Positions 4,223 through 29,319 of a DNA stretch of 36,535 bases are shown in pieces (within the stretch, counting starts at the first letter, position 1; every line of letters begins with the position of its first letter). A program made the translations under genes and the position numbers. The stretch spans positions 1 through 36,535 of IMG/VR virus record IMGVR_UViG_3300031949_000107; one strand, 5' to 3'. The notes beneath the pieces were generated by a model. It saw nothing but the letters and a program-made list of their open reading frames with translations, was not told where the DNA came from and ran no database searches. Origin of the DNA: a virus. Taxonomy: Duplodnaviria > Caudoviricetes.

Positions 4223-4296
4223 GGAACCGCAACGGTCCAATTGCTTTAGCATCAAAAATCTGAACGGACCTGAGCGGTCCGAGAAAGAGGTTCACC

Positions 4297-4782: not shown

Positions 4783-4803
4783 CGTCCCTGGTCAGGGATG
4801 AAA

Positions 4804-4849
4804 TCCGGGGACAGTCCTTTCGGGGCTGTTCCCGGAATCCTTATTTTTT
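4804..4849 (+). terminator. rho-independent terminator after the capsid genes
   Basis: TCCGGGGACAGTCC-tttcg-GGGCTGTTCCCGGA stem followed by ATCCTTATTTTTT. Confidence 0.7.
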
Positions 4850-4854
4850 GAGGC

Positions 4855-5046
4855 ATGCAAATGTTGGTACGCATGGAAGTAGGAAGTCACAAGGGAACGA
4901 TTCGAGACATCGAACCGGAAGCAGCTCGCGCGATGATGGCTGATGGTCGCGCTTCGCTTCCTAACTGGGATCCTCCGGCGGTCGTCAAGGCCGCGATTCC
5001 CGTATCGCCAGTCCGCCGTTCGCGAAAGAAGGCGAGAAAGGCCTGA
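4855..5046 (+). CDS. small basic phage protein (weak ribosomal L9 N-terminal-like pattern)
   Basis: 63-aa ORF filling the gap before the connector gene. Pattern G-x2-G-x-I-x-D-x5-AR-x5-G-x-A, then a Lys/Arg-rich tail. Confidence 0.55.
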   Translation: MQMLVRMEVGSHKGTIRDIEPEAARAMMADGRASLPNWDPPAVVKAAIPVSPVRRSRKKARKA

Positions 5047-5049
5047 GTC

Positions 5050-5724: not shown

Positions 5725-5733
5725 GCGAGGACC

Positions 5734-6105
5734 ATGCCTCAGTTGAGTCCACAGAATACCGGAATCCGCATGGTGAAATGTACTCTGTGGAAGAGTGTCG
5801 GTTCCGATTCTCTCGGAGGTCCGAGTCAAACCCCTGTGTTGGTAGGCGGTGTGTGGGCTCAGATTGTCAGCTTGCGCGGCGTGGAGCTCGCAGCGGCCCA
5901 ACAAATCAATGCACAGATCAACGTACGCATCAGCGTTCGCTATCAAGACGTCCGCGCCATCTTCGAAGACGGCACGATTGTGAAGATGTACGTCCAGCAT
6001 CGGACGGCCTATTACGACATCCAGGCACCGATTGCCCGAGACCAGCGAGACCAATGGATCGACCTATTTTGCGTGGGCCGCGATACGCCGCCGATTTTCT
6101 CATGA
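5734..6105 (+). CDS. head closure / head-tail adaptor (SPP1 gp16-like)
   Basis: VWAQI..LRG.E...A.QI.A.....I.VRY, Y.I motifs. Canonical position after the connector. Confidence 0.8.
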   Translation: MPQLSPQNTGIRMVKCTLWKSVGSDSLGGPSQTPVLVGGVWAQIVSLRGVELAAAQQINAQINVRISVRYQDVRAIFEDGTIVKMYVQHRTAYYDIQAPIARDQRDQWIDLFCVGRDTPPIFS

Positions 6106-6779
6106 AGGTCTCATGCATCATGCCAACTCGTAACCGCGGTCACCTGCTGCCACTCGCGTTGGCCTGCTTCGATGCCCAGGATTGGCCGGAGCGCGAGCTG
6201 GTGGTGCTCGACGACGGCGAGGAGCCGGTCGATAAGGCCGTGGGCGGGCACCCGGGAGTCCTCTACGGCCGGCTTCCGGCAATCACCGCGCTCGGGAAGA
6301 AGCGCAACCTATGCTGCGAGATGGCCCGCGGCGACGTGATCGTCCATTGGGACGACGACGACTGGTCGGCGCCGACGCGGATCCGTGACCAGGTATCGCG
6401 GCTCGTGTCCGCAGGCAAGTCGGTGAGCGGCTACCATTCGCTTTTCTTCTGGTCCATGACCCTGGGCAGGGCGTTCAAGTACCAGGGGCAGCCGAGCTAT
6501 TCATGCGGCACGGCGCTCTGCTACACGCGGGACTATTGGGCCAGGAACCGGTTCAAGGACTGGCTTCCGGTGAAGGGCTCACACGAGGACAACGATTTCA
6601 CGTCCAGGGCCAGGGATCATCGCGAGCTCGTTTCCGCCGCCGGCTGGAGCCAGCTCGTGGTGCGCGCCCATTGCGGCACGACGAGCGCGGACAGCCGAAT
6701 CGGCAGCAACGGGTGGCCCGCAGCGGACGCCTCTGAACTGCCAGCGAAGTTCTTCGAGGATTTAAGCCGTGCGCTTTAA
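6102..6779 (+). CDS. glycosyltransferase family 2 (GT-A)
   Basis: MKVSCIMPTRNR, Q....ELVVLDDG, LG.KRN, GD.IVHWDDDDW (DxD), ED..F. Start moved to ATG 6102 (ATGA overlap with the closure gene). Confidence 0.9.
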   Translation: MKVSCIMPTRNRGHLLPLALACFDAQDWPERELVVLDDGEEPVDKAVGGHPGVLYGRLPAITALGKKRNLCCEMARGDVIVHWDDDDWSAPTRIRDQVSRLVSAGKSVSGYHSLFFWSMTLGRAFKYQGQPSYSCGTALCYTRDYWARNRFKDWLPVKGSHEDNDFTSRARDHRELVSAAGWSQLVVRAHCGTTSADSRIGSNGWPAADASELPAKFFEDLSRAL

Positions 6780-7671
6780 CATCATCAGCAATCTCGTCAA
6801 CGGCGTCGGACTTCAGCAAGACTATCTGCTACTGAAGTCTGAATTGGAAAGGCGCGGCCATTCCGTCACCGGACTTCAAGGAGACGACAAGCACGCGGTC
6901 CCTGCGCCTGCGGACATCAACATCTTCATCGAATGGGTGGTCCCCAGGTATTTCAGCGCGGCGCCGCGACAATGGCTTATTCCGAATCCTGATTGGTTCT
7001 ACGTCGAATGGCGGTCGCTGCTACCACGATTCGAAAGAATCCTGGCTAAGACAAGGGATTGCGAACGGATCTTCCGGTCCACTAATCGCTGCTCGTATCT
7101 TGGATGGCGCTCCCGGGACCTGTTGGATGCGAGCGTAACGCGATCCCGCAAGTTCCTCCACGTCGCCGGCAAGAGCCAACTGAAAAACACGCCATCCATA
7201 ATCGAGGCGTGGCGACGCGGTCTGGTAGATGCAGACCTGACGGTCATTTCGGCGCATTACTGCGCGCCATCTCTGAACCGGGTGACCATCGTGAGGCGCG
7301 CGAGTGATTCCCAGTTGCAACACAACATGAATTCTCACCTATTCCACTTGATGCCCTCTGCCTATGAAGGATGGGGGCATGCTTTGCATGAGGCGCTCGG
7401 GGTCGGAGCCGTGCTTCTGACCACAGACGCGCCGCCGATGAACGAACTGAAGGCCGCGGCGCACTTCATCACTGCCGATGGGACCAGCCGATTCAATACC
7501 GCGGATTTGCGGCAGGTGAATTTTCCGGAGATAGCGTCGGCGGTGAACGAAGTCCTATCGTGGTCGTCTGACAAACTGAGCTCGGCTTCCTCGGTCGCCC
7601 GGCAGGGCTTCCAGGAGGAGACGACGGCCTTTCAGGAAAGACTGGACGAGTTGATTCGGAGTGCAGCATGA
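6769..7671 (+). CDS. glycosyltransferase, GT-B fold (GT4-like)
   Basis: FLHVAGKS..KNT, then PS.YEGWGHALHEAL.VGA...TTDAPPMNE (E-x7-E motif). Confidence 0.85.
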   Translation: MRFNIISNLVNGVGLQQDYLLLKSELERRGHSVTGLQGDDKHAVPAPADINIFIEWVVPRYFSAAPRQWLIPNPDWFYVEWRSLLPRFERILAKTRDCERIFRSTNRCSYLGWRSRDLLDASVTRSRKFLHVAGKSQLKNTPSIIEAWRRGLVDADLTVISAHYCAPSLNRVTIVRRASDSQLQHNMNSHLFHLMPSAYEGWGHALHEALGVGAVLLTTDAPPMNELKAAAHFITADGTSRFNTADLRQVNFPEIASAVNEVLSWSSDKLSSASSVARQGFQEETTAFQERLDELIRSAA

Positions 7672-8969
7672 AACAAGAGACCGCAATCATCATTTTGGCG
7701 AACGGTGAACAGAGCCGATGGCCTGATGGGGCCCGCCCCAAGCAGCTTCTTGAGGTTGACTCGGTCCCGATCATCCGGCGAGCCATCGCCTTATTCGAGG
7801 AAGCTCTCCGCGCCTCCGCTCGAGTCGTAACGCGGGACGATCGCATCATCGCCGTGGTCGGCGGGATGCGGGTGGTGAATGTCGGTCCGCCAGTAGAGCA
7901 ATTAAACGACCTGCTTCGGGCTCGTGCAGAATGGGGCACGAAGCGCACGGTCTGCTTGCTTGGCGACGTGTTCTATACCGATGCAGCGGTCAAGGCGATT
8001 GCCGGGTGCAGGAAGCCGGTGGCCTTCTATGGTCGGCGGCTTGCCTCCCAGATTACCGGCAAGCCTCACGGCGAGCTAGTGGCGATGGCCTGGGACTCGG
8101 AGAATGACGAACGCATGGCGGCGTCGCTCGCTACTTGGCACGATCGGCCTCTACTGTGGTCGCCATACCGGGACTTCGCTGAGCTCTGGTCGCTTCCCAT
8201 TGAAGATAATTACCTGCACCGTGTGCCCGACTGCCTAACAGAGATCGATGATTTCACGGATGACTTCGATTGCCCGCAGGACTGGCAGACGTGGATGAGG
8301 CTTCGCGTGGCAAGCATCACCGGCTTTGCAGAGCTACGTCATGACCCGACGCGTAAGTGGACTATCTCCGGGAGAGAAATGCCTTGGGCCTACGGATGGC
8401 AGCGGCCGGCGAATGCTCCTGGAGCCGAACGGATAAGTACGTCAGGGTATGACATTCAAGACTGCCTGGTCTCAGCCTGCAAGATGATCTCGCCCCGCAA
8501 TTATCTGGAGATTGGCGTCGATGGCGGCGGCTCATTCTTCGCTGTGCTCGAAGCAGCTGAGATTGAGCACGCTGTGCTGTGCGACATTTGGAACCCATCA
8601 TATTGTGACCATGGATTCAAGGACCACGAGCATATCGCCGAGCAGCTTCGCACTTTTGCACGCCCGCCGAAATCCGTTGAATACCTCGACGGTCCATCCG
8701 TTGAATTGATACCGAGGCTGGCGGGACGGAAGTTTGACCTGATCAACGTGGACGGATGCCACACGTCAGAAGCGGCGACGTTAGACCTCGATAACTGCTG
8801 GCCCTTGCTCCGAGAGGGCGGGATGTTGGTCTTCGATGATGTGGGCCATTCTCGATACCGGCATCTCGAGTTTGTTCTCAGGGATTTTATGGCGAAGCAT
8901 CCTGACGCAGCCCTGATTCCAGAGGCCGCCGCCGACTGGCGAACCTGCGCCCTGGTGGTGAAGACATGA
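7668..8969 (+). CDS. nucleotidyltransferase (LicC/MobA-like) fused to a class I SAM methyltransferase
   Basis: N-terminus IILANGEQSRW....PKQLL.V...PII.R, LLGDV.Y, DDFD..D. C-terminus YLEIGVDGGGS, FDLINVDGCH, L.EGG.LVFDD. Confidence 0.8.
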   Translation: MKQETAIIILANGEQSRWPDGARPKQLLEVDSVPIIRRAIALFEEALRASARVVTRDDRIIAVVGGMRVVNVGPPVEQLNDLLRARAEWGTKRTVCLLGDVFYTDAAVKAIAGCRKPVAFYGRRLASQITGKPHGELVAMAWDSENDERMAASLATWHDRPLLWSPYRDFAELWSLPIEDNYLHRVPDCLTEIDDFTDDFDCPQDWQTWMRLRVASITGFAELRHDPTRKWTISGREMPWAYGWQRPANAPGAERISTSGYDIQDCLVSACKMISPRNYLEIGVDGGGSFFAVLEAAEIEHAVLCDIWNPSYCDHGFKDHEHIAEQLRTFARPPKSVEYLDGPSVELIPRLAGRKFDLINVDGCHTSEAATLDLDNCWPLLREGGMLVFDDVGHSRYRHLEFVLRDFMAKHPDAALIPEAAADWRTCALVVKT

Positions 8970-9478
8970 GGCTAGAGTTAGGATGCGGCACGAAGCCCAC
9001 CGAAGGGTACGTTCACCACGATCGGTGGAAGCACAGTCCTCACGTGGACCTTGAATTTGACCTGGCCGATCTTCCGTGGCCCTTAGAGAGCGGCTCAGTG
9101 GATGAGATCCGGGCCTATGACGTTTTCGAGCACTTGGCCGTCGAGATTGAATTTCCCCTGGAGAGCGGGACCAGGTCCGTTTTCGTTCCGCTGCAGGTGC
9201 AGCAGTGGCTTGATGAATGCTGGCGGATACTGAAGCCCGGCGGGCTGCTCAACATGCGCCTGCCCGCGTACGACAACCCGTACAGCGACCGCGACCCTAC
9301 GCACCAGCGCGTGTTCCACCCGGAGTCGTTCCTCTACTGGTGCCCTGACGCATCCGGTACGGTGTGGAAGGAATTCGGGCGATTTTATTTCGGGCCGGGA
9401 TACAACAAGTGGTGGCATCAGGCAAAGGCCTCCAAGGACGACTCCAAGGACCTTGTCTTCTGTTTGGTGAAGCTGTGA
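8966..9478 (+). CDS. class I SAM-dependent methyltransferase
   Basis: LELGCG, D.....P....SVDEI....VFEHL, E.WRILKPGG, DPTH. Confidence 0.85.
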   Translation: MRLELGCGTKPTEGYVHHDRWKHSPHVDLEFDLADLPWPLESGSVDEIRAYDVFEHLAVEIEFPLESGTRSVFVPLQVQQWLDECWRILKPGGLLNMRLPAYDNPYSDRDPTHQRVFHPESFLYWCPDASGTVWKEFGRFYFGPGYNKWWHQAKASKDDSKDLVFCLVKL

Positions 9479-10230
9479 ACGATGTAGTCATTGTCCCGAC
9501 GCACGGCCGCCCGGAAATGCTTTTGCACTGTCTCGAACATCTTGAGGCCTGTCCCGACCTTGCGAATGCGGACGTTCGCATTGTGGTTGACCAGCACCAG
9601 CACAAGAGAATACCGGCGGCGGTGCACCACGAGACACTGGATGTGATTGCGGGGTTCACACACCGCGGCTGGAAATTAACGGTGCGCGACCGCCACTTCT
9701 ATTGGGGAAACAGCTTCAACGTGCTGACTGCCTACAAGGAATCATTCGCCGCCGGCCATCCACTCACGTTCCTCGTGGAGGATGACGTGATGGTGGAACC
9801 TGGATTCTTCGCATGGCATCGAGCGGTGCATGAATCCGAACAACTGTTCTGCTCGATAGCGTCCGCGAACACGAGGTCCGGCCAGCTGAGGACGAAGGAT
9901 GATTTTGCTTCTCTCGGCGTGTGCTTCCCGCTGGCGTCCCTGGGCCTGATCGTTCCTCACGCCCGCGTTGCGTACTTTATTAACATGGGCAAATATTGCG
10001 TGGACACCTTCGGCGGTGATAGTAAGCTGTTCTGTGAGCAGGACGGGTTGATTCTTAGGATCATGAAACAGGCCGGAGGAACGGCCCGCTATCCTGAGAC
10101 TCCACTCGCGCGGCATGTGGGGGATTACGGTTACAACCGTGGATTAGCAAACCAGCCGGGTGGCGACTTGCAAGCTCGCTACCGGGCCATAGGGGAAAGA
10201 ATACGTGATAAAACTTTCCGAGTTATCTGA
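9475..10230 (+). CDS. glycosyltransferase, GT-A-like
   Basis: VVIVPTHGRPE.L, VVD, FLVEDDV (DxD-like), EQDG, HVG.YG. GTG 9475 overlaps the upstream TGA (GTGA). Confidence 0.75.
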   Translation: MNDVVIVPTHGRPEMLLHCLEHLEACPDLANADVRIVVDQHQHKRIPAAVHHETLDVIAGFTHRGWKLTVRDRHFYWGNSFNVLTAYKESFAAGHPLTFLVEDDVMVEPGFFAWHRAVHESEQLFCSIASANTRSGQLRTKDDFASLGVCFPLASLGLIVPHARVAYFINMGKYCVDTFGGDSKLFCEQDGLILRIMKQAGGTARYPETPLARHVGDYGYNRGLANQPGGDLQARYRAIGERIRDKTFRVI

Positions 10231-10627
10231 CAAGTTCAGTCCGGAACCTATGAGCGGATGCTGGTTGTGGTTGCTGTGCTGTGACCGCGAGGGTTATGGC
10301 CGCATCAGCATCGGCGGGAAAAGGTCGCTCTATGCCCATCGTTTAATGTTTGAACTGGTGCGAGGACAGATTCCTCGCGGCTTGCAAATTGATCATCTGT
10401 GTCGCGTTCGCTCATGCGTAAATCCATCGCACATGGAGCTTGTTTCTTCTTGCGAGAACACGATGCGAGGACAGAATTTTGCTGCGATTCATGCGAGGAC
10501 AACGCATTGCCCGCGCGGACACGCGTACACGCTGACAAATACGTATATACCGCCAGGCAGGACTGACAGAAATTGCAGGCGTGCCGCCGGATCAGGAGAA
10601 CCCTGTAATGGCCGAAGGCGATGTTAA
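10205..10627 (+). CDS. HNH homing endonuclease (HNH_3 type), probable 1-nt frameshift near the 3' end
   Basis: GCWLW, GYG, AHR, IDHLCR.R.CVNP.H.E.V...EN, THCPRGH. Adding one G at about 10578 restores CRACRRIRRTL* ending in TAATG with the next gene. Confidence 0.85.
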   Translation: MIKLSELSDKFSPEPMSGCWLWLLCCDREGYGRISIGGKRSLYAHRLMFELVRGQIPRGLQIDHLCRVRSCVNPSHMELVSSCENTMRGQNFAAIHARTTHCPRGHAYTLTNTYIPPGRTDRNCRRAAGSGEPCNGRRRC

Positions 10628-11075
10628 GGTCAGCGGACTCAAGGAGCTTGGCGAAGTGATGCGCCTTGTACCTGAGAAGCTCGAGAAGCGCATCATCGGC
10701 GAAGCGACTCGGGCCGGGACCAAGGTTCTCGTGGAGGGCGTGCGCCGCCGGGCGCCGCGGCTCTCCGGAGAATTGGCGAGGAACATCACGGCAACCTTCA
10801 AAGTGTTTTTCGGCAAGGGCATAGCGGTCGCAAGAATTGGAGTCAGGTATCGCCGCATCCTCGCGGCATCGAGTCGCCGTCCAGGTCTGGTTCCGAGCAC
10901 TGAAGATCCTGGCGTGTACGCCCTATTCCTTGAGTTCGGGCGCCCGAACCGGAAGGGCCACACCTATCAAGCCGCGCAGCCATTCATGCGGCCCACCTTT
11001 GACCAGGATGCTGACGCTGCGGTTAAGGCGTTCGCCGCGAAGATCCGCGAACGCCTGGGGGATTTGGTCGGATGA
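10608..11075 (+). CDS. HK97 gp10-like neck / tail-completion protein
   Basis: V.GL.EL, AP..SG.L..NI, Y..FLEFG, AQPFMRP.FD. Start reassigned to ATG 10608. Confidence 0.9.
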   Translation: MAEGDVKVSGLKELGEVMRLVPEKLEKRIIGEATRAGTKVLVEGVRRRAPRLSGELARNITATFKVFFGKGIAVARIGVRYRRILAASSRRPGLVPSTEDPGVYALFLEFGRPNRKGHTYQAAQPFMRPTFDQDADAAVKAFAAKIRERLGDLVG

Positions 11076-11725
11076 TTGAGCGAGACCTGAGAGATTACAT
11101 GCTGTCCGACCCCGGCATCAGCGCCAAGGTCGGAACCCGCGTCCACCTGGAGCAGCTCCCGGAAATGACGCCGTACCCGGCGATTGCTTTCCAGCAGATC
11201 TCCGGTCCGCGCGAGCACACTCTGGGGGACGGCTACCCGACCGCCGCGACGCCGCGCTATCAGATCGGTTGCTTCGCCGTTACCTATGCGGCCTCCAAGG
11301 AACTGGCCCTGGCGGTTGAAGCGGCACTGGACGGGCATCTGGGTGAGCTCGTGCCGAGCTCACCCATCCAAGGCACGTTCGTGCTTGACGTGCACGACAT
11401 CTTTGAGCCGGTCCCCAGGGTCTTCATGTGCCCGGTTGACGTGATGCTATTCTTCAACCCGCCGGCGGGCCCGGTCCCAGGAGGGAACGTGAACATCTGG
11501 CAGCGGTACACGATCGGGGACGGCTTGACGGGTGCCATCAATGGCGTGAATCAGATCTTCACCGTGTCCGTGACCCCGGACCCGCGGACGGCCATCGTCG
11601 TCTTCAACGGACTCGTCATACTCAAGAGCCGGTACACGATCAACGGGAGCCAGTTCGTGCTCTCGTTCGCTCCGAAGGCAGCGGACGGTGACTTCGCGGC
11701 GGACACACTGGAGGTCTACTGCTGA
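11072..11725 (+). CDS. tail terminator (DUF3168 / gp17-like) with fused C-terminal beta domain
   Basis: L..D..I...VG.RV.....P.....PAI.F, R.QI...A..Y. Extra domain after the linker PPAGPVPGG. Confidence 0.8.
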   Translation: MIERDLRDYMLSDPGISAKVGTRVHLEQLPEMTPYPAIAFQQISGPREHTLGDGYPTAATPRYQIGCFAVTYAASKELALAVEAALDGHLGELVPSSPIQGTFVLDVHDIFEPVPRVFMCPVDVMLFFNPPAGPVPGGNVNIWQRYTIGDGLTGAINGVNQIFTVSVTPDPRTAIVVFNGLVILKSRYTINGSQFVLSFAPKAADGDFAADTLEVYC

Positions 11726-12186
11726 TGAGAAGAAAAGTCATCGCTCTCGGTTTCTTTCTTTGGCTGTTTTGGGTATCGCTTTTGCCTTGGGGGCGAACGC
11801 AGCAGGTGGACTACGAGACCCAGACGAAGAACAAGCCGCTGATGGCGTTCACGGTTGCATTCAAGTCGCCGACCACGCTCGACAGCGGCAAGGTGCAGTA
11901 TCAGTTTTCGAACAAGGCGACGGTCCGCCGGTTTAAGTGTTGGACGGATACTGGAACCGTGGACGTGAACTTCGACCTGCGCGCTGAGTCAACGCCGGAC
12001 ACCCCGGGCGCCAACTTGCTGCCCGGGGACCTTACGTGCGCCAATCCGCCGAACGCGGCGCAAGACGTGAGCGTGCCGGTCGCGGCGGGGCAGCTTTTGA
12101 ACTTGCAGGTAAACGGCGCGGCCGGGACGCCGGGGGTGGTGCGAATCTCGGTGTCGTACAAATTCTTCCAAGGAGCGAATCAATGA
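11725..12186 (+). CDS. signal-peptide/TM-bearing protein with fibre-tip-like beta-sandwich
   Basis: MRRK followed by hydrophobic VIALGFFLWLFWVSLL. The C-terminal pattern (V.AG..L.L.V......V.I.V.Y) resembles the C-terminal domain of the 26755 fibre. TGATG coupling to the upstream gene. Confidence 0.65.
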   Translation: MRRKVIALGFFLWLFWVSLLPWGRTQQVDYETQTKNKPLMAFTVAFKSPTTLDSGKVQYQFSNKATVRRFKCWTDTGTVDVNFDLRAESTPDTPGANLLPGDLTCANPPNAAQDVSVPVAAGQLLNLQVNGAAGTPGVVRISVSYKFFQGANQ

Positions 12187-12905
12187 ACAGCTTGAAGCGT
12201 TGGTCTTTCGTGTGCGCGATGTTCCTCGGGTTCATGAGCCTGGGGATGTACCAGATGAAGGAAAACCACGTCACCACGGCGACGCCGGCGGTTTCTGTGG
12301 GCCGCGGCCGGACAATTACCGAGAACCTGGGGACAAGCCACCCCGTCGAGCGGGTCCTGCACCACTGTCAGGCGTATCAGCGACACGATCCTCTGACCGG
12401 CGCCGGTCTGCCTCTGACGGATTCTGAGATCGCGCGCTGCCATGCGGACCCGCTCACAGAGTTCGGCCGGGAAGTCACCTATAACCTGCGGACGAACACG
12501 GGCGACGACTGGCAGGCGGAGCTCATGGGGAAGAATTCCGCGCCGACCACAAACCTTCAGTGCCAATACCTCGGCATGGCGATGGACACGTCCAACGCGG
12601 AAGTAGGGACGGTCGCGCAGACCGACGACTCCATCGAGGACTCCGGGACCGGCTCGACGGAGATCACGGCCAACGGCTTCTGGAACGGCGGCACAGCGCG
12701 CTGGCAGGCGACCTATAACCACACCGGTGGGACCTCGACGTACACGTCGCAGAAGGTCATCTCCGCTACGGGCACGCAGTCCAGCAACAAGTCCGGGCTA
12801 TTCACGGCGACCACGGCGGGGTTGATGTGCTTCGAGGCCCTGTTCACCAAGGCAACGGTGAACTCGGGAGACACACTCACGACGACCTGGACTATCAATT
12901 TTTAA
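12183..12905 (+). CDS. signal-peptide/TM-bearing virion fibre-anchor-like protein
   Basis: MNSLKR followed by hydrophobic WSFVCAMFLGFMSLG. Later N..TN.G...Y.G......D....EI...GLF.A...G....F....VN.GDTL..TW.I pattern typical of phage fibre/collar N-terminal domains. ATGA start at 12183. Confidence 0.65.
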   Translation: MNSLKRWSFVCAMFLGFMSLGMYQMKENHVTTATPAVSVGRGRTITENLGTSHPVERVLHHCQAYQRHDPLTGAGLPLTDSEIARCHADPLTEFGREVTYNLRTNTGDDWQAELMGKNSAPTTNLQCQYLGMAMDTSNAEVGTVAQTDDSIEDSGTGSTEITANGFWNGGTARWQATYNHTGGTSTYTSQKVISATGTQSSNKSGLFTATTAGLMCFEALFTKATVNSGDTLTTTWTINF

Positions 12906-12914
12906 CTATCATAC

Positions 12915-12953
12915 TTTAACCTTCTTACACTAAGATAGTGTATGGAGGTTAAA
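12915..12953 (+). promoter_or_regulatory. AT-rich hairpin sequestering the Shine-Dalgarno of the HNH gene
   Basis: TTTAACCTTCTTACACTA-aga-TAGTGTATGGAGGTTAAA. 16 of 18 pairs are Watson-Crick plus one G-U. GGAGG lies in the 3' arm and the ATG is at 12958. Confidence 0.8.
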
Positions 12954-12957
12954 CGCG

Positions 12958-13539
12958 ATGGAAGGTAACTGTGAGGTGTGCAGTACTTTCAGGAAGTGGC
13001 TTCACAAGCACCACGAAAAGCTGCAAGTCGAGGGAGGAAAGGATGAGGATGGCACCAGGCTCGTCTGCGCGAACTGCCACGAGGACATTCACGGCGGGCC
13101 ATGCGGTGGTGTCGAGCGGGGCAGAACGTCCTTGTCGCCATCGGCCAGGAAGAAAAAGGCAGTGGCTGCTGCTCGGCTGTGGAATGACCCAAAGTACCGG
13201 AAGAAGGTCGCGGCTGGACAACGGCGAGCCATCAAGAAGAAGGATTACAAGGCCATCGGCAGGAAGATCGCGGCGGCTTGGACGCCGGAGCGCAGGAAGG
13301 CGCATGCTAAGCTGCTGAGCAGGATCAAGCGGAAGCAGCTCGCCGGTCGCTGGTCCTTCAAGTACAAATGTTGTCGTAAGTGCAAAACCACTAAGGTCCC
13401 GCACAGGGGGAAAGGGTTCTGCGAGCGATGTTACATGCGCCGGTTCATGCGGGAGCAACACGCGGAAAGAGCGAAGAAGCTCTTCGCTTCTTCTCTTGCT
13501 TATCGTCGCTTGGCGGAGCCTGGGAAAAAGCTGCCATAA
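12958..13539 (+). CDS. HNH homing endonuclease with basic linker and C-terminal Cys zinc-finger
   Basis: CEVC...LHKHH.....GG.......VCANCH..IH. C-terminal C..C......H..KG.C..CY. Confidence 0.8.
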   Translation: MEGNCEVCSTFRKWLHKHHEKLQVEGGKDEDGTRLVCANCHEDIHGGPCGGVERGRTSLSPSARKKKAVAAARLWNDPKYRKKVAAGQRRAIKKKDYKAIGRKIAAAWTPERRKAHAKLLSRIKRKQLAGRWSFKYKCCRKCKTTKVPHRGKGFCERCYMRRFMREQHAERAKKLFASSLAYRRLAEPGKKLP

Positions 13540-15449
13540 CACTACTGGCGGTACTTGCCCTCGCGCTCTGTCTGTCGGAGGGCGCCGAAGCCGGCATCGC
13601 GCGCGCCGGGGCGAACTGCACCGGGACGACGAGCTGCACGCCGACCAACGCCGTAGGCGACCTGATGCTGGCGTGGGCCGTTCGCAACGGCAATCAGAAT
13701 ATTCCTACGGTTCCGTCCACTCCGGCGTGGACGACCCTTGGGACGGTAATTCAGAATGGCGCGGGGTCGAATGACAGCGCGGCGGTACTGGCGTGCTTCG
13801 TGTCGACCAGCTCGGACCAGGCCAGCGGCACGTTCACAAACGCCACCGGGCTCATCGTGATGGTGTACTCGGGGCAAAGCGGAGGCGCGGATTGCAGCGC
13901 CGGCGGCTCCATCATGGGCACGCCGGTCACGTACAACGCCGGCGCGAGCTCGACGACGGAGACGTTCAACGCTGTCACGAACGCCAACGGAAACTCCTGG
14001 GACGTGGGCTTCGGCTTCTGCCACGCGTGCACGGCGGGGATCGCCACGGCCCCGACCGGGATGGGGAACAGGTCGTCGATCGCCGGCCCTCCGGGGTTCG
14101 GCGGGCACGACACGAACGGCGCGGTGTCGTCGTTCAGCTCGGCCAACGTGACGCTGACAACGGCGGGCCGCATCCTGACCATGGTGGTTGAAATCAAGGC
14201 GTCGGCTGCGGCCGTGGCCAACATGACAGAGGATCTCAGCCCTTCGCAGAGCGTGGCTTCTGTGACGGCAGCACTCGCCAGCCTGACGGAAAATCAGGGC
14301 CCATCCTACACCCTGTCCACGGTGACTGCGGCTAGCGCGCTCCTCACCGAGAACCTCAACCCAGGAGACAGCGTGACGGCGCCGCGCGGTACGAACGCGG
14401 ACCTCACCGAGAACCTCAGTCCGTCTGATGAAGTTGCCAGCGTCACGGCGGCGACTGCCGGGTTGACCGAGAATCTGAGCCCGACGGACAGCGCGGCAGC
14501 GGTGACGGCGGCTAACGCTTTGCTGTCCGAAGATTTGAATCCCTCGCAGGATCTGGCGCGCGCCTGGGGCACCACGGCGAATCTTACTGAGAACCTTGGG
14601 CCCTCCGACACCGTGCTTTCGGCGACGGCCGCGTTCGCATCATTGACTGAGGACCTTTCTCCTGGGGATGCGGTGGCAGGAGTGACGGCTGCATTCGTGT
14701 CCCTCGTGGAGAACCTATCCGCGTCAGATTCTCCAACGGCCTCGACAGCGGCAAATGCTGCGCTGACTGAGAATCTTTCTCCAGGCGATACAGTTGCCGG
14801 TGTCACTGCCGCCTTCGCGGCCATCGTTGAGAACCTATCGCCCTCTGATTCATCGGCAGCCGTTACCGCTGCTAATGCTTCGATCATCGAGTCGTTGGGT
14901 CCTTCGGATTCCGCCGGCGTAGTAACAGCGGCGTTCGCCAACTTGACCGAGAACCTATCGCCATCAGACGTGGTGGCCGCCGTGACGGGAGCCTTTGCCG
15001 GGATCACCGAGACCCTTTCTCCCGGAGATAGCGTGACCGGGGTCGCGAGCGGCGGCGGTGGGCAGGCGTTCTTCGCCAATCTGACCGAGAGCCTGTCACC
15101 GAACGACACGGTCAACGCCCTAACCGGGGCTTTCGCTATTTTGACTGAGAACCTGTCGCCGTCAGATGCGGTCAACGCCGTGACCTCTGCTTTCGCAGCC
15201 CTTGTGGAGTCTCTTTCCCCTGGCGACAGTGCAGGGGCGGTCACGGCGGCCAACGCTCCGGTGACTGAGAATCTTGCTGGCGGCGATACCGTTGGTGCTC
15301 AGACGGCCGCGAACGCGTCCATCTCGGAGACTCATACCGCAGCCGACATGGTATCGGCAGTTGTGGGAGCGGCGGGCGAGGCGAAGGATTACATCATCAT
15401 CGGCTTCAAGAGATTTTCAAATCTGTTCAACAAATCAAAAGGGAGGTAA
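13428..15449 (+). CDS. signal-peptide-like, Ser/Thr/Ala-rich repeat fibre/surface protein (start uncertain)
   Basis: K-AAITLLAVLALALCL-SEGAEA|G has Sec signal architecture. It is followed by a Cys-containing beta domain (GDLMLAW...P....WTT...YSG) and 19 repeats of 20 aa. Confidence 0.75.
   Translation: MLHAPVHAGATRGKSEEALRFFSCLSSLGGAWEKAAITLLAVLALALCLSEGAEAGIARAGANCTGTTSCTPTNAVGDLMLAWAVRNGNQNIPTVPSTPAWTTLGTVIQNGAGSNDSAAVLACFVSTSSDQASGTFTNATGLIVMVYSGQSGGADCSAGGSIMGTPVTYNAGASSTTETFNAVTNANGNSWDVGFGFCHACTAGIATAPTGMGNRSSIAGPPGFGGHDTNGAVSSFSSANVTLTTAGRILTMVVEIKASAAAVANMTEDLSPSQSVASVTAALASLTENQGPSYTLSTVTAASALLTENLNPGDSVTAPRGTNADLTENLSPSDEVASVTAATAGLTENLSPTDSAAAVTAANALLSEDLNPSQDLARAWGTTANLTENLGPSDTVLSATAAFASLTEDLSPGDAVAGVTAAFVSLVENLSASDSPTASTAANAALTENLSPGDTVAGVTAAFAAIVENLSPSDSSAAVTAANASIIESLGPSDSAGVVTAAFANLTENLSPSDVVAAVTGAFAGITETLSPGDSVTGVASGGGGQAFFANLTESLSPNDTVNALTGAFAILTENLSPSDAVNAVTSAFAALVESLSPGDSAGAVTAANAPVTENLAGGDTVGAQTAANASISETHTAADMVSAVVGAAGEAKDYIIIGFKRFSNLFNKSKGR
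14217..15374 (+). repeat. 19 degenerate 60-bp tandem coding repeats (A-x-LTENLSP-[SG]-D-x-V-x2-VTAA-x)
   Basis: The period is visible in consecutive 60-nt lines 14221-15001. One 18-nt Gly-rich insertion (SGGGGQ region) lies in unit 14. Confidence 0.9.
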
Positions 15450-15454
15450 CTCAA

Positions 15455-15892
15455 ATGTCAGCAGGCAGCCAAGCAACACTCGGTTCGGCGACCAAGCTCA
15501 AGCAGGGCGACGCCGCCAGCCCCGAAGTTTTCACCACGGTGGCCGAAGTCCTGACGCTGGAGCGGTCAGGGCGCAAGATCGACCTCGTGGACGTCACCAA
15601 CATGGACTCGCCGGTGGACGGCGACCTCACCTGGCGCGAGTTCATCCACGGGCTGGCGGACGGCGGCGAGATCAAGTTCTCCGCCAACTACATCCCCGAC
15701 AATGTCTCGCAGCAAAACTTCACCAACTCGTTCGACGGCACACGGCGCAACTGGCAGATCGTGCTGCCGAACAGCCTGGGAACCTGGTCCTTCACCGGCT
15801 TCATCACGGCGGCGGATATGAAGTTCCCGATCGACAAGCAGATGGAGTTCTCCGGCACCATCAAGGTGACGGGAGCCGACACCTTCGCGTAA
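15455..15892 (+). CDS. tail tube (major tail) protein
   Basis: F..VAEV........D.VDVT..DS......EFI.GL.DGGE..F..N..P, F.G.I, IKVTG. SD GGAGG. Confidence 0.9.
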   Translation: MSAGSQATLGSATKLKQGDAASPEVFTTVAEVLTLERSGRKIDLVDVTNMDSPVDGDLTWREFIHGLADGGEIKFSANYIPDNVSQQNFTNSFDGTRRNWQIVLPNSLGTWSFTGFITAADMKFPIDKQMEFSGTIKVTGADTFA

Positions 15893-15917
15893 ACTACGCG
15901 CGAGCTGCCTTTAACTT

Positions 15918-15944
15918 GAGGGGGGAGCCAAAGCTCCCCCTCTC
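15918..15944 (+). terminator. GC-rich stem-loop after the tail tube gene (weak terminator or mRNA stabiliser)
   Basis: GAGGGGGGAGC-caaa-GCTCCCCCTCTC with no good U tract. Confidence 0.5.
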
Positions 15945-15968
15945 CCTTACCAAAGGAGAACCAGCAAC

Positions 15969-16346
15969 ATGAAAGACCCGACAGTAGAGAAGCATGTGAT
16001 CACCTTGAATGACGGCGTCGAGCGGACCCTGTTGTTCGATTACGAGGCTTGCGCGGCCATTGACGAGCTCTTTCCGGAAACCACGTCTCTGCTACCGAAG
16101 TTTTGGGCGACCATCAACGCCAAGAAGCTGCCCGTCATCATCTGGGCCGGCCTCGAGGACGCCTGCCACCGGGAGGAAGGCGGCAAGCCCGAAATCACTC
16201 TGGCCCTGGTCCGGAAGCTGATGAAGGGAATCCGTCCGCTGAAGCTTCTCAACGTCGCCGCGGAAGCATGGATGGGCGCGCTGCCGGAGGACGTTGAGGT
16301 CCCTACAAAGGCGCAAGTGGTCGAGGCCATCAAGCAGTTCCAGTAG
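15969..16346 (+). CDS. tail assembly chaperone (gpG-like)
   Basis: Lies between tube and tape measure. L.FD..A...I.E and IIWAGL motifs. SD AAGGAG. Confidence 0.8.
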   Translation: MKDPTVEKHVITLNDGVERTLLFDYEACAAIDELFPETTSLLPKFWATINAKKLPVIIWAGLEDACHREEGGKPEITLALVRKLMKGIRPLKLLNVAAEAWMGALPEDVEVPTKAQVVEAIKQFQ

Positions 16347-16663
16347 TCAAAGTCACCTGGCTTGATGTGTGGTCACTGGCGCGTTTTGATCTAGGACTCT
16401 CCGACCGAGAGTTCTGGAAGAGTACGCCACGGAAGCTCGATGCCATGGCCCGCCGCTCTGTCAAACGACAGCAGCAGGCCGACCAGCGCGCGGGCGTGTT
16501 GGCGGCGTTGATAGCCAACATCGTGCGCGAGAAGGGCCGCGTGCTCATGCCGGAAGATTTCTTCCCTAGCCTGAGTGCTGGCGAGGCCAAGGTTGTAGCC
16601 GAGACCCCGAATCAGATGAAGGAGTTCATCCAACTCTTCAGAGCATCCCGCAAGAAAGGGTAA
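16298..16663 (+). CDS. tail assembly chaperone gpT-like ORF, probably expressed by -1 frameshift from gpG
   Basis: The -1 frame is open from 16298 and encodes W..VW..AR.DLGLS..EFW..TPR. No SD-associated start is visible. Confidence 0.75.
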   Translation, partial: GPYKGASGRGHQAVPVVKVTWLDVWSLARFDLGLSDREFWKSTPRKLDAMARRSVKRQQQADQRAGVLAALIANIVREKGRVLMPEDFFPSLSAGEAKVVAETPNQMKEFIQLFRASRKKG

Positions 16664-16670
16664 CCCCACC

Positions 16671-19574
16671 GTGGCGATCAAACTCGGCGAACTCGTAATC
16701 CAACTTACGGCTCAGACCAGTGCCTTCACCAAGGGCATGACTGATGCTCGCCAGATGACGTTCACATCCGTGGACGGCATCGTTGGGTCCCTCAAGAGGG
16801 TCGGTGACTCCCTCTCCCGCCTGAAGTTCGACAACGCCAAACAAATCGAACGGTCTTTTCAGATCCTCGGCGGAGTAGTGGCCGGAGTTTCCCTTGCAAT
16901 GGGTGCGGCGCTGACATTCATGGTGGGCAGGGCCATCGCGTCTGCCGACAAGCTGCACGACCTGGCGATGGCGACGGGCCTGACGACCGAGTTCCTGAGC
17001 GGGATGAGCCTGGCCGCGAGGCTGAACGGTGTGTCGCTGGAGGCTTTCGCCAAGGCCTCCGAGCGCCTGAGCCGAAACATGCTTGCCACTGCCCAAGGCA
17101 TTGGAGTGTCTCGCACGGCCTTCAAGCAGCTTGGGATCGACGTCACGGACGGCAAGGGTCATCTGCTTTCGCTTCAGGAAGTTCTGTTCAAGATCGCCGA
17201 CCATTTTGCCACGATGCCGGACGGCCCGATGAAGACGGGCCTCGCCATGCAGTTCCTCGGCAAAGCGGGGGCCGAACTGATCCCGATGCTGAACGGCGGG
17301 AGCAAGGAGCTCAAGAAATACCTGGAGCTCGCGCAGCGCCTGGGCATCATCGTCGGGCAGGACGTTGCCGACGCCGCTGATAGGTTCGGTGACTCCATGC
17401 TCATCGCGCGAGCCGCGATGGACGGGGTCGGTATGCAGATCACCGCCGGGATGCTTCCGGCGCTCAACAATCTCATCGAGGCGTTCTTCAGAGTCGAGCA
17501 GCACGACGACAAGATGAAGAAGTTCGGTGAGGGCATCGGTAGCAGCATGCGGAACGTCTCTGCGTGGTTCATCGATGCCGCGTACTACATGGGCGTCTGG
17601 GCAGTAAAGCAGGACACCTGGAATGCAAAACTTGCGGGCGCAGCCGCAGCCGGGATCACGGGTGGTCCATTGGCCGCAATCGCTGCACTATTCAAGAAAG
17701 GTCCCGACCAAGATGCGTTGCTCAAGGGATTAGAGGATGAGCATCGAAAGCAGATTGATCGCCTGTATGGAATAACGCAAACCGGCGGCGAACTGCCGAA
17801 GCTGAAGACCGATAAACCGGTGGTGGTGGGCGGCAAGGAAGCCCCGGTCGATCGCGTCTCGAAGAAGCTGGCTGACATCGCGGCCGAGCGCAAGGCGATC
17901 ATGGACAAGATACTGGCGCAGGATCTAGACGCCGCCTCAATCCTGCGCGTCGTTGCCGCTGCCAAAGCGGACGAGGAAATCTCCAAGTTGCGGGCCGGCC
18001 TGAAGGCCAAAGAGAAGGCCGAGCTTGATGCCATCGCGCCGGTGATGAGACAGGAGATCATCGCCCGCGAGCTAGATGCCAACGCCCTGAAGCAGATGGA
18101 GCAAGCGCGCGGCGGCGCGATCAAGAAGGCCGATGAGCAGATCGCCGCCGAACAGCGATTGATAGCCGCGGCACCCCGCGGCCTGGAGGCTATGCGGGAG
18201 GCTGAGCTCCATAATCAAATAGCTGTCGAGACCGCTGACCTTGTGATTGCGCGCGACCTGGCCGAAGGCAGGGTAAAGGAACAGCTCACGTCCATCATTG
18301 AGGCCGTGACCGCCGCGCGACGTCGTGAGGCTGCTGTGACCGGCGCCGAGAAGGCAATCTCCGGAGCCACCGGGCAGACCGAGCAGCTCAGACAGCAGAC
18401 CTCCGCAACCGATAACCTTGCCCGCGCCACGTCCAAGGGTAATGACGCCGTGCGGCAGGCCGAGCTCCAGAACCGCATCGCCAACGCGACCCGCGAGCTT
18501 GGTATTCAGTGGGCGAAGGCCGACGCCCAGGGCAAGCTGGAAATCGCCGACGCTGCCGAAAAGCTTGTCGATAGCGAAGTTCAGTTATTCCGAGCAGAAG
18601 AAGATCTCCGCAACCAGCAGGAGATGATGCGGTATCTGGCGCCCTCCGAGCGGTACGACATGGAGATCGCTCGGCTCGAGAAGCTGCGGGACATGCTGCA
18701 GGCGGCCGGTCGCAGCACTGCGTACCTGGCTGAGGAGGAGCGCCGCCTCAAGATCGCAACCCAGGAAGCGAACGATGAACTCCTGCGCGGCACAGGGACG
18801 GCCCTGGCCGGCATCACCGTCGGGATGCACCAGTATGCCCGCAACGTAGGCACGATGGCCGACATGATGGAGCGGGCTACGACGACAGCTCTACGCGGCA
18901 TCGAGGGCGCCATGTCCTCGCACGTCAGCGCGATGCTGATGGGAACGGAGACGATCGCCGAGGGGTTCCGGAACATGGGCCGTGACATGCTCCAGGCCAT
19001 CGTGGATGCCCTGTCTCAGATGCTGGCCCAGTGGATCGTCACCCACATCATCATGGCCGCGGTCTCCAAGATTCTCGGCTTTGATCAGACCGGCAAGAAG
19101 GAGGTCGCGGAGAAGCAAAAACAGTCCCGTCAGAAGATCTCCGCGGACGCTGGCGTAGTCGGTGCTGACGTGTTCCGGCAGGCCATCGAGAAGATTCCTT
19201 TCCCCGCCAACCTTGCAATCGCTCCGCCACTCGCTATGGGGATGGCAACTTTGGCCGGCGCCTTCTCATCGCTGACGATGCTAAAGGCTGCCGGTGGTGG
19301 CATCGTCCCTGGGGCTGTGTCCGGCGACGTAGTGCCGGCCATGTTGACTCCCCGCGAGGGCGTTCTTACCGTAGATGAAATGCGGGCGATTCAAGGCGCA
19401 CGCCGCGAGAACGGTTCCGGGGCTTCTAGGGGAATCTCGGTTACGGTTCACTCTAGCCCGGTGCTACAAGCCCTGGACGCCACCGGCGCAGACGCGATAC
19501 TCGAGCGCCACGCACAGAGCATCGGGCGCATTGTTCGTTCCGAACTGCGGAACGGGAGAATGCCTTATGAGTAA
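16671..19574 (+). CDS. tail tape measure protein
   Basis: 967-aa Ala-rich helical protein. LGELVI.L.A.T..F..G at the N-terminus, AxGG.VPG...D.VPAMLTP.E.VL at the C-terminus. Confidence 0.93.
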   Translation: MAIKLGELVIQLTAQTSAFTKGMTDARQMTFTSVDGIVGSLKRVGDSLSRLKFDNAKQIERSFQILGGVVAGVSLAMGAALTFMVGRAIASADKLHDLAMATGLTTEFLSGMSLAARLNGVSLEAFAKASERLSRNMLATAQGIGVSRTAFKQLGIDVTDGKGHLLSLQEVLFKIADHFATMPDGPMKTGLAMQFLGKAGAELIPMLNGGSKELKKYLELAQRLGIIVGQDVADAADRFGDSMLIARAAMDGVGMQITAGMLPALNNLIEAFFRVEQHDDKMKKFGEGIGSSMRNVSAWFIDAAYYMGVWAVKQDTWNAKLAGAAAAGITGGPLAAIAALFKKGPDQDALLKGLEDEHRKQIDRLYGITQTGGELPKLKTDKPVVVGGKEAPVDRVSKKLADIAAERKAIMDKILAQDLDAASILRVVAAAKADEEISKLRAGLKAKEKAELDAIAPVMRQEIIARELDANALKQMEQARGGAIKKADEQIAAEQRLIAAAPRGLEAMREAELHNQIAVETADLVIARDLAEGRVKEQLTSIIEAVTAARRREAAVTGAEKAISGATGQTEQLRQQTSATDNLARATSKGNDAVRQAELQNRIANATRELGIQWAKADAQGKLEIADAAEKLVDSEVQLFRAEEDLRNQQEMMRYLAPSERYDMEIARLEKLRDMLQAAGRSTAYLAEEERRLKIATQEANDELLRGTGTALAGITVGMHQYARNVGTMADMMERATTTALRGIEGAMSSHVSAMLMGTETIAEGFRNMGRDMLQAIVDALSQMLAQWIVTHIIMAAVSKILGFDQTGKKEVAEKQKQSRQKISADAGVVGADVFRQAIEKIPFPANLAIAPPLAMGMATLAGAFSSLTMLKAAGGGIVPGAVSGDVVPAMLTPREGVLTVDEMRAIQGARRENGSGASRGISVTVHSSPVLQALDATGADAILERHAQSIGRIVRSELRNGRMPYE

Positions 19575-20475
19575 TGACGTATTCCCGTCGTTGATCCGCG
19601 GGCCAGCCTTCCACTTCAAGAAAACACAGAGCTTCGCCACGATCATCCAAGCGGCGGCGAGCAAGGCTGAGACTCGCATCGCTCAGATGCAGAACCCGGT
19701 CTGGATGTGGGAGCTTCCTTATACCTACCTCACGGACGACCCTACCAAGCTTTCTGCCGGGCTGAGCTACACGGACTTCCAGACCATCATGGGCTTCTAT
19801 GGTCGGATGCAGGGGCCATTCGAATCCTTCCTCTATAGTGACCCCGACGACCATTCTGTAGGACCCGCGATGATTAGCGGGTCGCCGAATCCTGCGGCCA
19901 TTCTTCAGGTGGTGGATGATGGCCTGGGAAACTACTACTCTCCTATTCAGCGCAACTTGGGAGGCGAGTTCTACGAGGACATCACCGACCTGAACGGACT
20001 GATTGCCGTCTATGCCAACGGAACGCTGAAGACCTTGACGACGCACTACACGGTCGGCGGTCCTGGCTTGGCGCTTCCGAACGCCAGTTTCGCCGGCCTG
20101 TACGTCGCCTGGGTCTCGCCGGCGGCGTGGCTGCCGAACCACAACTACTCCGTCAACGACGAAATTCTTGACCCGGCGGGACACATACAAAAGGTCACAT
20201 ACGACAACGGTAGCTCCGGCAGCACCGAACCTGATTGGGACGATGAGGGAGGCACGACCGATGAAGGGAGCCCTGTGTCATTGACGTGGGAAGATCAGGG
20301 CTACAACCCGGGCCCCGATACTCCGGTGACGGCGGCATTTGACTTCTACTTCCGCGTCCGGTTCATGAATGACGAGCAGCAGATGGAGCAGTGGCTCAAG
20401 AAGGCCTGGGGCGCCGGCGGCGACCAGGGTGGAGATCCAATCAAGTTGATCACCGCGCGCGTGCCGGCCGTCTAG
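19567..20475 (+). CDS. distal tail protein, DUF2460 / RcGTA g12-like, with inserted module
   Basis: F.T.I...AS..E.R, F..R..G....FL..DP.D, P....VTA.F.F...VRF..D. Start at ATG 19567. Confidence 0.8.
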   Translation: MSNDVFPSLIRGPAFHFKKTQSFATIIQAAASKAETRIAQMQNPVWMWELPYTYLTDDPTKLSAGLSYTDFQTIMGFYGRMQGPFESFLYSDPDDHSVGPAMISGSPNPAAILQVVDDGLGNYYSPIQRNLGGEFYEDITDLNGLIAVYANGTLKTLTTHYTVGGPGLALPNASFAGLYVAWVSPAAWLPNHNYSVNDEILDPAGHIQKVTYDNGSSGSTEPDWDDEGGTTDEGSPVSLTWEDQGYNPGPDTPVTAAFDFYFRVRFMNDEQQMEQWLKKAWGAGGDQGGDPIKLITARVPAV

Positions 20476-21790: not shown

Positions 21791-21800
21791 AATCTACAAG

Positions 21801-29318: not shown

Positions 29319-29319
29319 G

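What the first reader, a model, noticed from the sequence alone, without database searches (positions are those of the whole stretch)
11725..15449. Three fibre/decoration-like genes in the neck-tail operon carry export-type N-termini
Seen: three genes (11725, 12183, 13428) sit between the tail terminator and tail tube genes. Each has a basic residue followed by a hydrophobic helix near the N-terminus, and 13428 has an A-E-A|G cleavage-like site. Each has cysteines downstream (for example NCTGTTSC, FCHAC). Their mature parts resemble virion domains that occur without signals elsewhere in this window. Known: siphovirus virions assemble in the cytoplasm, so structural proteins normally lack signal peptides. 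Inference: these may be virion accessory fibres that fold in the periplasm and load at lysis, or virion-derived domains reused as a host-surface appendage. This is my best candidate for an undescribed system.
Basis: partly seen in the sequence, partly recalled or inferred. Interest (0 to 1): 0.85.

Follow-up and report, generated by a model that had tools for sequence, protein, structure and literature searches.

The report
Phage bead-and-rope fibre with export signals
A soil phage, probably of Acidobacteria, carries a three-gene cassette predicted to build a beads-on-a-rope accessory fibre. Its parts bear secretion-signal-like starts that most relatives share, so they likely fold outside the cytoplasm where phage particles are built and would join the particle only when the cell bursts.

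Summary
Gene B (12183) has a Sec-type leader in 26 of 30 homologues and sits in a 59-member clade with 56 leaders. None of the 19 other virion genes here has one. The predicted fold of B resembles the 'bead' of GP4 fibre I and Bas63/Sf14 whiskers (Z 7.0, middling). Gene C (13428) is a disulfide-type head domain plus 19 repeats of 20 residues, the period of the likely GP4 rope. Gene A (11725) is a jelly-roll whose homologues lie directly upstream of beads. The cassette recurs in unrelated Acidobacteriota phages, often beside a leaderless gp77-type collar (39 of 40 leaderless). Corrections: an HNH-like ORF lies between B and C and overlaps C's start, so ATG 13428 is doubtful; A's and B's cleavage sites are non-canonical; resemblance to leaderless genes in this window was not shown. 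Most likely an exported, disulfide-folded chain fibre that docks on virions at lysis (~50%); rival, a host-surface appendage (~27%). This scan found the phenomenon before on other DNA, including bead/rope cases; seven literature searches listed no description. Verdict: new variant of a known fibre.

The parts
11072..11725 (+). Tail terminator, leaderless, with an extra ~80-aa C-terminal domain (DUF4183/T7-fibre-N-like small beta domain); candidate cytoplasmic dock, unsupported
   Evidence: PF11367 over residues 6-118; Atlas structure row named DUF4183, feature scores under 0.9; no homologue in fetched loci
11725..12186 (+). Gene A: leader (aa 1 to ~25) plus single jelly-roll domain with two invariant cysteines; conserved upstream partner of the bead
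   Evidence: AF2 pLDDT 72, all-beta; VIA top XepA Z 10.2, many jelly-rolls near Z 8; phmmer E 1e-13 to 2e-17 to the gene upstream of the bead in L001-L004, L087, L106
12183..12905 (+). Gene B: Sec-type leader (aa 1 to ~23) plus whisker/fibre-I-like 'bead' domain with two cysteine pairs (62/86, 127/216)
12261..12323 (+). One rope-like 21-aa unit at the mature N-terminus of B (possible placeholder or donor strand)
   Evidence: PSSM from 92 rope units, shuffle p 0.01; 11 of 92 leader-bearing and 3 of 41 other beads reach p<=0.01; pLDDT under 50 in the monomer model
12906..12961 (+). RNA hairpin covering the RBS and ATG of the HNH-like ORF
   Evidence: -23.2 kcal/mol, z -5.4, 0 of 200 shuffles
12958..13539 (+). 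HNH-like free-standing endonuclease ORF inserted between B and C, overlapping C's 5' end; not part of the conserved cassette
   Evidence: motif recalled, no library hit; absent between bead and rope in the mapped relatives
13428..15449 (+). Gene C (start uncertain: ATG 13428 or ATA 13536): leader, cysteine-rich head domain, rope, short basic/hydrophobic C-terminal tail
13593..14222 (+). C head domain (aa 56-265), six cysteines; also found as a module on other leader-bearing proteins
   Evidence: 25 homologues, 36-58% identity, 20 pass the leader heuristic; three Cys invariant and one nearly invariant in 10 aligned
14223..15380 (+). C rope: 19 tandem repeats of 20 aa (one of 26)
   Evidence: period 20, also the top period of GP4 gp79
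15455..15892 (+). Tail tube protein, leaderless (downstream boundary)
   Evidence: PF16461

Best explanation
Genes A, B and C form a conserved three-gene cassette with signal-peptide-like starts that likely encodes a GP4/Bas63-type chain fibre (B predicted as bead, C as rope with a head domain, A as partner), likely exported by Sec and folded with disulfides in the periplasm, and predicted to dock on finished virions when lysis mixes the compartments. Shown: the genes, leaders, repeats, paired cysteines, conservation and synteny. Predicted: the folds. Inferred: B dimers thread on C at about one repeat per monomer (about nine dimers per rope), export, cleavage, docking through C's C-terminal tail or through A, and a role in reversible adsorption to surface glycans. 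In this particular phage C may be made at low level or impaired, because the HNH-like ORF overlaps its start.
For: Leaders: 26 of 30 B homologues; 56 of 59 in B's clade on a tree built without the leader, 13 label changes against 34 shuffled; 20 of 25 C-domain homologues, with the two farthest leaderless; 4 of 6 complete, distinct A homologues by heuristic, the other two by eye; 0 of 19 other virion genes. Disulfides: Cys127/Cys216 both present in 57, both absent in 40 and single in 9 leader-bearing beads, against both present in 4 of 60 leaderless ones; the Cys62-type insert has exactly one partner in 28 of 29; even counts in 77 of 91 vs 18 of 40. Bead and rope leaders go together (10 both, 9 neither, 6 discordant of 25 loci with a rope; p 0.012). 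Virion link: fold neighbours are virion parts (GP4 fibre I Z 7.0, rmsd 3.6, 114 aligned; Sf14 neck Z 5.7; 36 BFVD matches at E<=0.001); the cassette lies inside morphogenesis operons of unrelated phages; a gp77-type collar (PF23148) neighbours the bead in 63 loci and is leaderless in 39 of 40 distinct sequences. Precedent: Cellulophaga phi18:3 gp085-087 carry leaders and are annotated as structural from MS/MS; cultured Tunturi 2 gp12, gp13 ('tail fiber') and gp17 ('virion structural') carry leaders.
Against: No experiment shows export or presence on virions for any member. B itself does not hit PF23140; Z 7 is in the tool's middling range, and two baseplate proteins rank level with gp80; hhalign to gp80 gives only 2%. 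This genome has no gp77-type collar (record 72% complete) and no dock was identified. A's and B's cleavage sites are non-canonical and C's start is doubtful. A few relatives have lipoprotein-type leaders (2 of 99 by regex; L009 bead and L094 A by eye). Nitrososphaera carry leader-bearing beads among non-phage genes, one near a rope protein with a C-terminal membrane anchor (L036, L037). The bead persists without a rope in a Mu-like cluster at one chromosomal site (L025-L028). The loci are not independent: many come from one Terriglobia lineage. The MS annotation of phi18:3 could reflect co-purified protein; I did not see the paper.
Confidence: 0.5

Rival explanations
1. The exported parts never join the virion. 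They build a host-surface or released appendage (adhesin, decoy or receptor shield) from virion-fibre parts, with beads threaded on the rope or chained through their own N-terminal rope unit.
For: Lipoprotein-type leaders in a few members; archaeal chromosomal bead and membrane-anchored rope with no phage genes nearby (L036, L037); bead kept while rope is lost in the conserved Terriglobia cluster; no collar in this genome; the phage has a separate leaderless tail-tip fibre set at 26755-30081.
Against: Position inside late operons, transcribed when the cell is about to lyse; a leaderless virion collar beside the bead in 63 loci; no outer-membrane usher or anchor in A, B or C of this window; only 2 of 401 sampled genomes of the phylum matched (limited sensitivity), so it is not a common host gene.
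Confidence: 0.27
2. The leaders are uncleaved membrane anchors or non-exported assembly peptides. The fibre is built on the cytoplasmic face of the inner membrane and added to virions in the usual way.
For: Non-canonical c-regions in A and B of this phage; disulfides occur in ordinary virions, e.g. the putative Bas63 collar rings (PMC12609058, passages); the A1002 bead gp41 loses ~30 N-terminal residues (PMC13730344, section 11), and its KPP25 counterpart has no leader.
Against: Most homologues have a basic-hydrophobic-A/G-Gln pattern (65 with a small or aromatic residue before Gln at positions 15-34); a positive N-terminus predicts the mature part outside; cysteine pairing tracks the leader.
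Confidence: 0.1
3. In this phage the cassette is decaying: the HNH-like insertion removed C's start, so no rope is made, whatever the family does elsewhere.
For: No canonical start at the expected place; 37-codon overlap with the HNH-like ORF, whose own start is buried in a hairpin.
Against: C is open for 673 codons with 19 intact repeats and 50-59% identity to homologues; rope genes of relatives also lack an ATG at the leader (L001, L002, L005), which would suit a subunit needed once per many beads.
Confidence: 0.13

Closest known systems
Ralstonia podophage GP4 fibre I (gp80 dimers on a separately encoded rope, Ig-like adaptor gp77; PDB 8JOU; PF23140, PF23148)
   Same: Bead-like predicted fold (Z 7.0); bead gene followed by a gene with a 20-aa period; relatives have a gp77 collar next door.
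   Different: GP4 gp77-gp83 are leaderless. Here bead, rope and partner have leaders and paired cysteines, the rope has a head domain and 19 repeats, there is no gp77 in this genome, and the phage is a siphovirus.
Collar-whisker of Bas63 and Sf14 (PMC12609058)
   Same: Whisker dimers wrap a rope like beads on a string at the neck (passages read); B's model matches the Sf14 neck chain (Z 5.7) and weakly Bas63 9mt4_M (E 0.32).
   Different: There the rope is fused to the collar, carries two dimers, and no export is described in the passages read.
Pseudomonas podophage A1002 / KPP25 chain-like fibre (gp40, gp41 on nozzle-rope gp39; PMC13730344)
   Same: B's profile aligns to KPP25 ORF007, the gp41-length gene (E 8e-4, probability 24%).
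   Different: The rope is part of the nozzle; KPP25 ORF005-008 have no leaders.
Leader-bearing structural proteins of Cellulophaga phage phi18:3 (gp085-087) and Tunturiibacter phage Tunturi 2 (gp12-14, 16, 17)
   Same: Sec-type leaders ending before Gln on virion-annotated proteins of cultured phages.
   Different: No homology to A, B or C found (B and C tblastn); podoviruses; the Tunturi paper text does not mention signal peptides; Tunturi 4, a siphovirus, has none in 20 late genes.
Q-rule signal-peptide proteins of Porphyromonas gingivalis phages (PMC10367356)
   Same: Phage genes with Sec leaders exposing Gln.
   Different: Function unknown there, read by the authors as modifying the host outer membrane; not fibre modules (passages).
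Chaperone-usher and type V pili (recalled)
   Same: Exported subunits with an incomplete beta-sandwich completed by a donated strand.
   Different: Different fold family; no usher or chaperone gene here; the donor is predicted to be a separate rope.

Membership tests
GP4/Bas63/A1002 chain-like (bead-and-rope) fibre | Bead subunit with gp80/whisker fold | tested here: inconclusive
   VIA Z 7.0, rmsd 3.6, 114 aligned to 8jou_a, tied with two baseplate proteins; B lacks a PF23140 hit, homologue P0012 E 0.014, P0033 precomputed PF23140; hhalign to KPP25 ORF007 24%, to gp80 2%
GP4/Bas63/A1002 chain-like (bead-and-rope) fibre | Adjacent rope protein with a regular repeat | tested here: met
   19 repeats, period 20; GP4 gp79 also has top period 20. 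That gp79 is the GP4 rope is my inference from position and period
GP4/Bas63/A1002 chain-like (bead-and-rope) fibre | Bead dimers bind the rope by beta-augmentation | not testable with these tools
GP4/Bas63/A1002 chain-like (bead-and-rope) fibre | Ig-like collar/adaptor (gp77, PF23148) that anchors the rope | tested here: not met
   0 matches in the own record at E<=10 (72% complete) and none with a locus-built profile; met in relatives
GP4/Bas63/A1002 chain-like (bead-and-rope) fibre | Present on the virion | not testable with these tools
   Uncultured phage; needs MS or cryo-EM
Sec/SPase I substrates | Basic n-region and hydrophobic h-region at a true N-terminus | tested here: met
   A and B, ATG with RBS; own heuristic, not SignalP
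Sec/SPase I substrates | Small residues at -3/-1 | tested here: inconclusive
   C has A-E-A; B has S-L-G or -1 Tyr; none found for A; canonical in most homologues
Sec/SPase I substrates | Leader of C begins at a usable start codon | tested here: inconclusive
   ATG 13428 gives 55 aa with weak RBS; ATA 13536 gives 20 aa without a basic residue
Lipoprotein (SPase II) appendage | Lipobox cysteine at +1 | tested here: not met
   No lipobox after the h-region of A, B or C (sequence); B not among 2 of 99 regex hits
Free-standing HNH homing endonuclease (ORF 12958) | HNH family match | tested here: inconclusive
   No Pfam, PHROG or NCBIfam hit; motif recognised from memory

The most novel reading that the evidence does not exclude
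Acidobacterial tailed phages use a second, extracytoplasmic assembly line. Sec exports bead, rope and partner; the bead's own N-terminal rope unit holds its groove until the rope displaces it (or chains beads together when no rope is present); and the finished disulfide-bonded fibre clicks onto cytoplasm-built virions at lysis. Hosts, including ammonia-oxidising archaea, have re-used the same module as a surface filament.
Probability: 0.3. Interest if true: 0.88.

Novelty: new variant of a known kind. Interest (0 to 1): 0.68.

Why it matters
Tailed-phage morphogenesis is taught as wholly cytoplasmic. A fibre whose subunits pass through Sec would give virions host-made disulfides and possibly periplasmic modifications. 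It would make lysis an assembly step, and it would explain why annotation pipelines miss many virion genes of soil phages. This family is a clean test case: the same fold exists with and without leaders, solved structures say which parts must touch, and relatives pair exported beads with a leaderless collar. Cultured Tunturi 2 and phi18:3 make the general question testable now. If the rival holds, it is a phage-derived pilus-like surface structure, which is also undescribed in what I searched.

Tried and rejected
Single-protein scans of viral contigs with B and with the terminator found no relatives. A had no homologue in the large protein search (length-limited); its relatives came from fetched loci. 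B has no match among 50,697 annotated phages; a homologue gave one weak hit, Chlorobiaceae phage CV-1-33. PDB sequence search: nothing under E 0.07; Foldseek PDB: none at E<=0.001. The idea that A1002 gp41's missing 30 residues are a signal peptide was rejected: KPP25 ORF007 starts with a beta-hairpin, not a leader. Terminator extension as a conserved dock: no homologue in 4673 frames. A first test of the rope-like N-terminal unit, with this window's repeats, showed no overall difference between leader-bearing and other beads (p 0.50; 17 of 83 vs 4 of 48 at z>2.5), so it is a subclade feature at best. An intron around the HNH-like ORF was dismissed by eye (52 bases between B's stop and its start); no RNA-family search was run. 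Assembly error at C's start: no variant in the one run, which is not independent; no RNA holder listed. Complex prediction of two B plus rope was not available; nothing was folded. The careful tree did not finish; the quick tree is quoted. No tRNA genes. Literature searches listed no paper on exported fibre subunits of tailed phages; only open-licence papers are searched, the original GP4 and Cellulophaga papers were not seen, and no supplements were read (the annotation tables of PMC11924767 and PMC10367356 may bear on this).
Full report
Setting. The window is a whole viral record (G000, 36,535 bases, 72% complete) holding an HK97-type head and lambda-like tail operon. Between terminator and tube lie four ORFs, not three: A (11725-12186), B (12183-12905), an HNH-like ORF (12958-13539) and C (13428-15449). 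The host is inferred only: 17 of 22 genome loci with B relatives are Acidobacteriota, two Nitrososphaeraceae and three other (patterns came from a leader-rich alignment, so this is biased).

The leaders. SignalP was not available, so I used a simple rule (basic n-region, 9-residue hydrophobic core, small residues at -3/-1). It fires on 0 of 19 other virion genes of the window and 4 of 808 internal windows. B passes; A has n- and h-regions but no A-x-A; C has h-region and A-E-A, but 35 residues after the ATG. Of B's 30 homologues 26 pass; two more have leaders by eye, one looks like an internal start, and the farthest (P0033) has none. Among the best 150 of 3855 profile hits, 73 of the 140 that begin with M pass, so the family has both forms. 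A quick tree of 126 core domains (rows without an M start, without the core motif or with unusual core length left out) puts B in a 59-row group with 56 leaders (SH-aLRT 90). It needs 13 label changes against a shuffled mean of 34; well-supported branches force at least 6, so leaders were probably gained or lost more than once. C's head domain has 25 homologues, 20 passing; three look mis-started and the two farthest are leaderless. A's domain is the C-terminal domain of the gene just upstream of the bead in 15 fetched loci (about ten distinct), with both cysteines invariant; of six distinct complete ones four pass and two have leaders by eye.

Cysteines. Mature A, B and C have 2, 4 and 6. In leader-bearing beads Cys127 and Cys216 are both present in 57, both absent in 40 and single in 9; in leaderless beads both are present in 4 of 60. 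Even counts: 77 of 91 vs 18 of 40 among those with any cysteine. This fits oxidative folding, though related sequences inflate the counts.

What the parts are. B's model (pLDDT 80) has virion proteins as its five best structural neighbours: HFTV1 baseplate hub Z 7.8, phi812 baseplate Z 7.5, GP4 fibre I gp80 Z 7.0, KP1 baseplate Z 6.9, Sf14 neck Z 5.7. These are middling scores and B has no PF23140 hit, so the fold alone does not settle it. Gene context adds weight: a gp77-type collar (PF23148) lies near the bead in 63 loci, and a repeat protein lies near it in 25 of 52 non-redundant loci. In Bas63, whisker dimers wrap a rope 'such as beads on a string', the rope completing incomplete sandwiches, and GP4's separate rope takes five dimers (PMC12609058, passages); A1002 has eleven (PMC13730344, abstract and section 11). 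C has 19 repeats of period 20, and GP4 gp79, the gene after gp80, has the same top period over about 240 residues. I infer C is the rope, with about one repeat per monomer and about nine dimers. A is a single jelly-roll (pLDDT 72; many folds near Z 8, top XepA Z 10.2). A-type and gp77-type loci never coincide among those fetched (15 vs 63; several A loci are short), which hints that A may stand in the collar's or a tip's place; this is untested.

A rope unit on the bead. Some leader-bearing beads, B included, begin their mature part with one 21-residue unit in rope register (E1, D7, R17, E21): 11 of 92 vs 3 of 41, two of those three being truncated members of the leader clade. An earlier version of the test showed no overall difference. 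It may be a placeholder or donor strand in one subclade; it is poorly ordered in the monomer model.

Distribution. The cassette appears after the capsid gene, between terminase and portal, between portal and protease, and in tail regions, in phages with different capsid and portal families. Bead and rope leaders agree in 19 of 25 loci (p 0.012). By eye L009 and L002 ropes have leaders and the L062 call is false; L040 and L041 appear to be real cases of an exported bead with a leaderless rope, and L037 is cut off. Many loci come from one Terriglobia lineage, where a Mu-like cluster sits beside dtd. The collar is leaderless in 39 of 40 distinct sequences, so in those phages exported and cytoplasmic parts could meet only at lysis.

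Against. This genome has no collar, and the terminator's extra domain has no homologue in relatives. A few members look like lipoproteins, archaeal genomes keep a bead and an anchored rope without phage genes, and some clusters keep the bead without a rope. C's start is overlapped by the HNH-like ORF, whose own start is in a hairpin; C's frame and repeats are intact, and relatives' ropes also have odd starts. Bead-rope binding could not be modelled.

Known and new. The parts are of a known kind. Leaders on virion-annotated proteins exist in cultured phages: phi18:3 gp085-087 (MS-annotated; 0 of 8 other late genes checked pass) and Tunturi 2 (4 of 21 genes checked pass, gp14 by eye; 0 of 20 in Tunturi 4). 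PMC11924767 (passages) does not mention them; PMC10367356 (passages) notes Q-rule phage proteins as possible membrane modifiers; PMC5723332 (passages) only counts signal peptides. Seven searches (listings only) showed no account of an export route for tailed-phage fibres. Earlier notes of this scan describe the same phenomenon, and bead/rope cases, in other genomes. I reached the bead/rope reading before seeing those, and they are not independent evidence. None matched this sequence or genome.

Verdict. Real, conserved, a new variant of the chain-like fibre. Export likely (about 0.85 for the family); joining the virion about 0.5; interest 0.68.

Noticed in passing
window 6105-10230: Five genes for glycosyltransferases, a nucleotidyltransferase-methyltransferase fusion and a methyltransferase sit between head closure and neck genes; possible virion or host-surface glycosylation.
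   Followed up: no
window 10205-10627, 12958-13539, 21738-22388, 34232-34675: Four free-standing endonuclease-like ORFs (two HNH_3, one GIY-YIG, one HNH-like), some overlapping the starts of essential genes; the 12958 ORF has an RBS-burying hairpin (z -5.4).
   Followed up: partly
window 11474-11722: Tail terminator carries an extra DUF4183-like C-terminal domain not seen in fetched relatives.
   Followed up: partly
window 15885-15972: Strong hairpins between tube and chaperone genes (z -4.6).
   Followed up: no
window 30489-33316: Lysis-like region: DUF5675 protein, a membrane-anchored coiled-coil protein, a predicted lipoprotein at 32090 and a small membrane protein.
   Followed up: no
L023-L030, L033, L035 (about 2000-20000): A Mu-like terminase-portal-protease-capsid cluster at one chromosomal site beside dtd in many Terriglobia MAGs; looks domesticated (GTA-like?). 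It keeps bead and collar while the rope is lost in L025-L028.
   Followed up: partly
L036:9875-10468; L037:988-3147 and 4558-5091: Nitrososphaeraceae MAGs carry leader-bearing beads among non-phage genes, one near a rope-repeat protein with a C-terminal membrane anchor: a possible archaeal surface filament from phage fibre parts.
   Followed up: partly
L020:12828-13208: The one gp77-type collar with a leader, in a phage where neighbouring genes are also leader-bearing.
   Followed up: no
L040:523-2801; L041:9812-13697: Leader-bearing bead with an apparently leaderless rope.
   Followed up: partly
window 34672-35835: ATP-dependent DNA ligase-like gene with an N-terminal extension.
   Followed up: no
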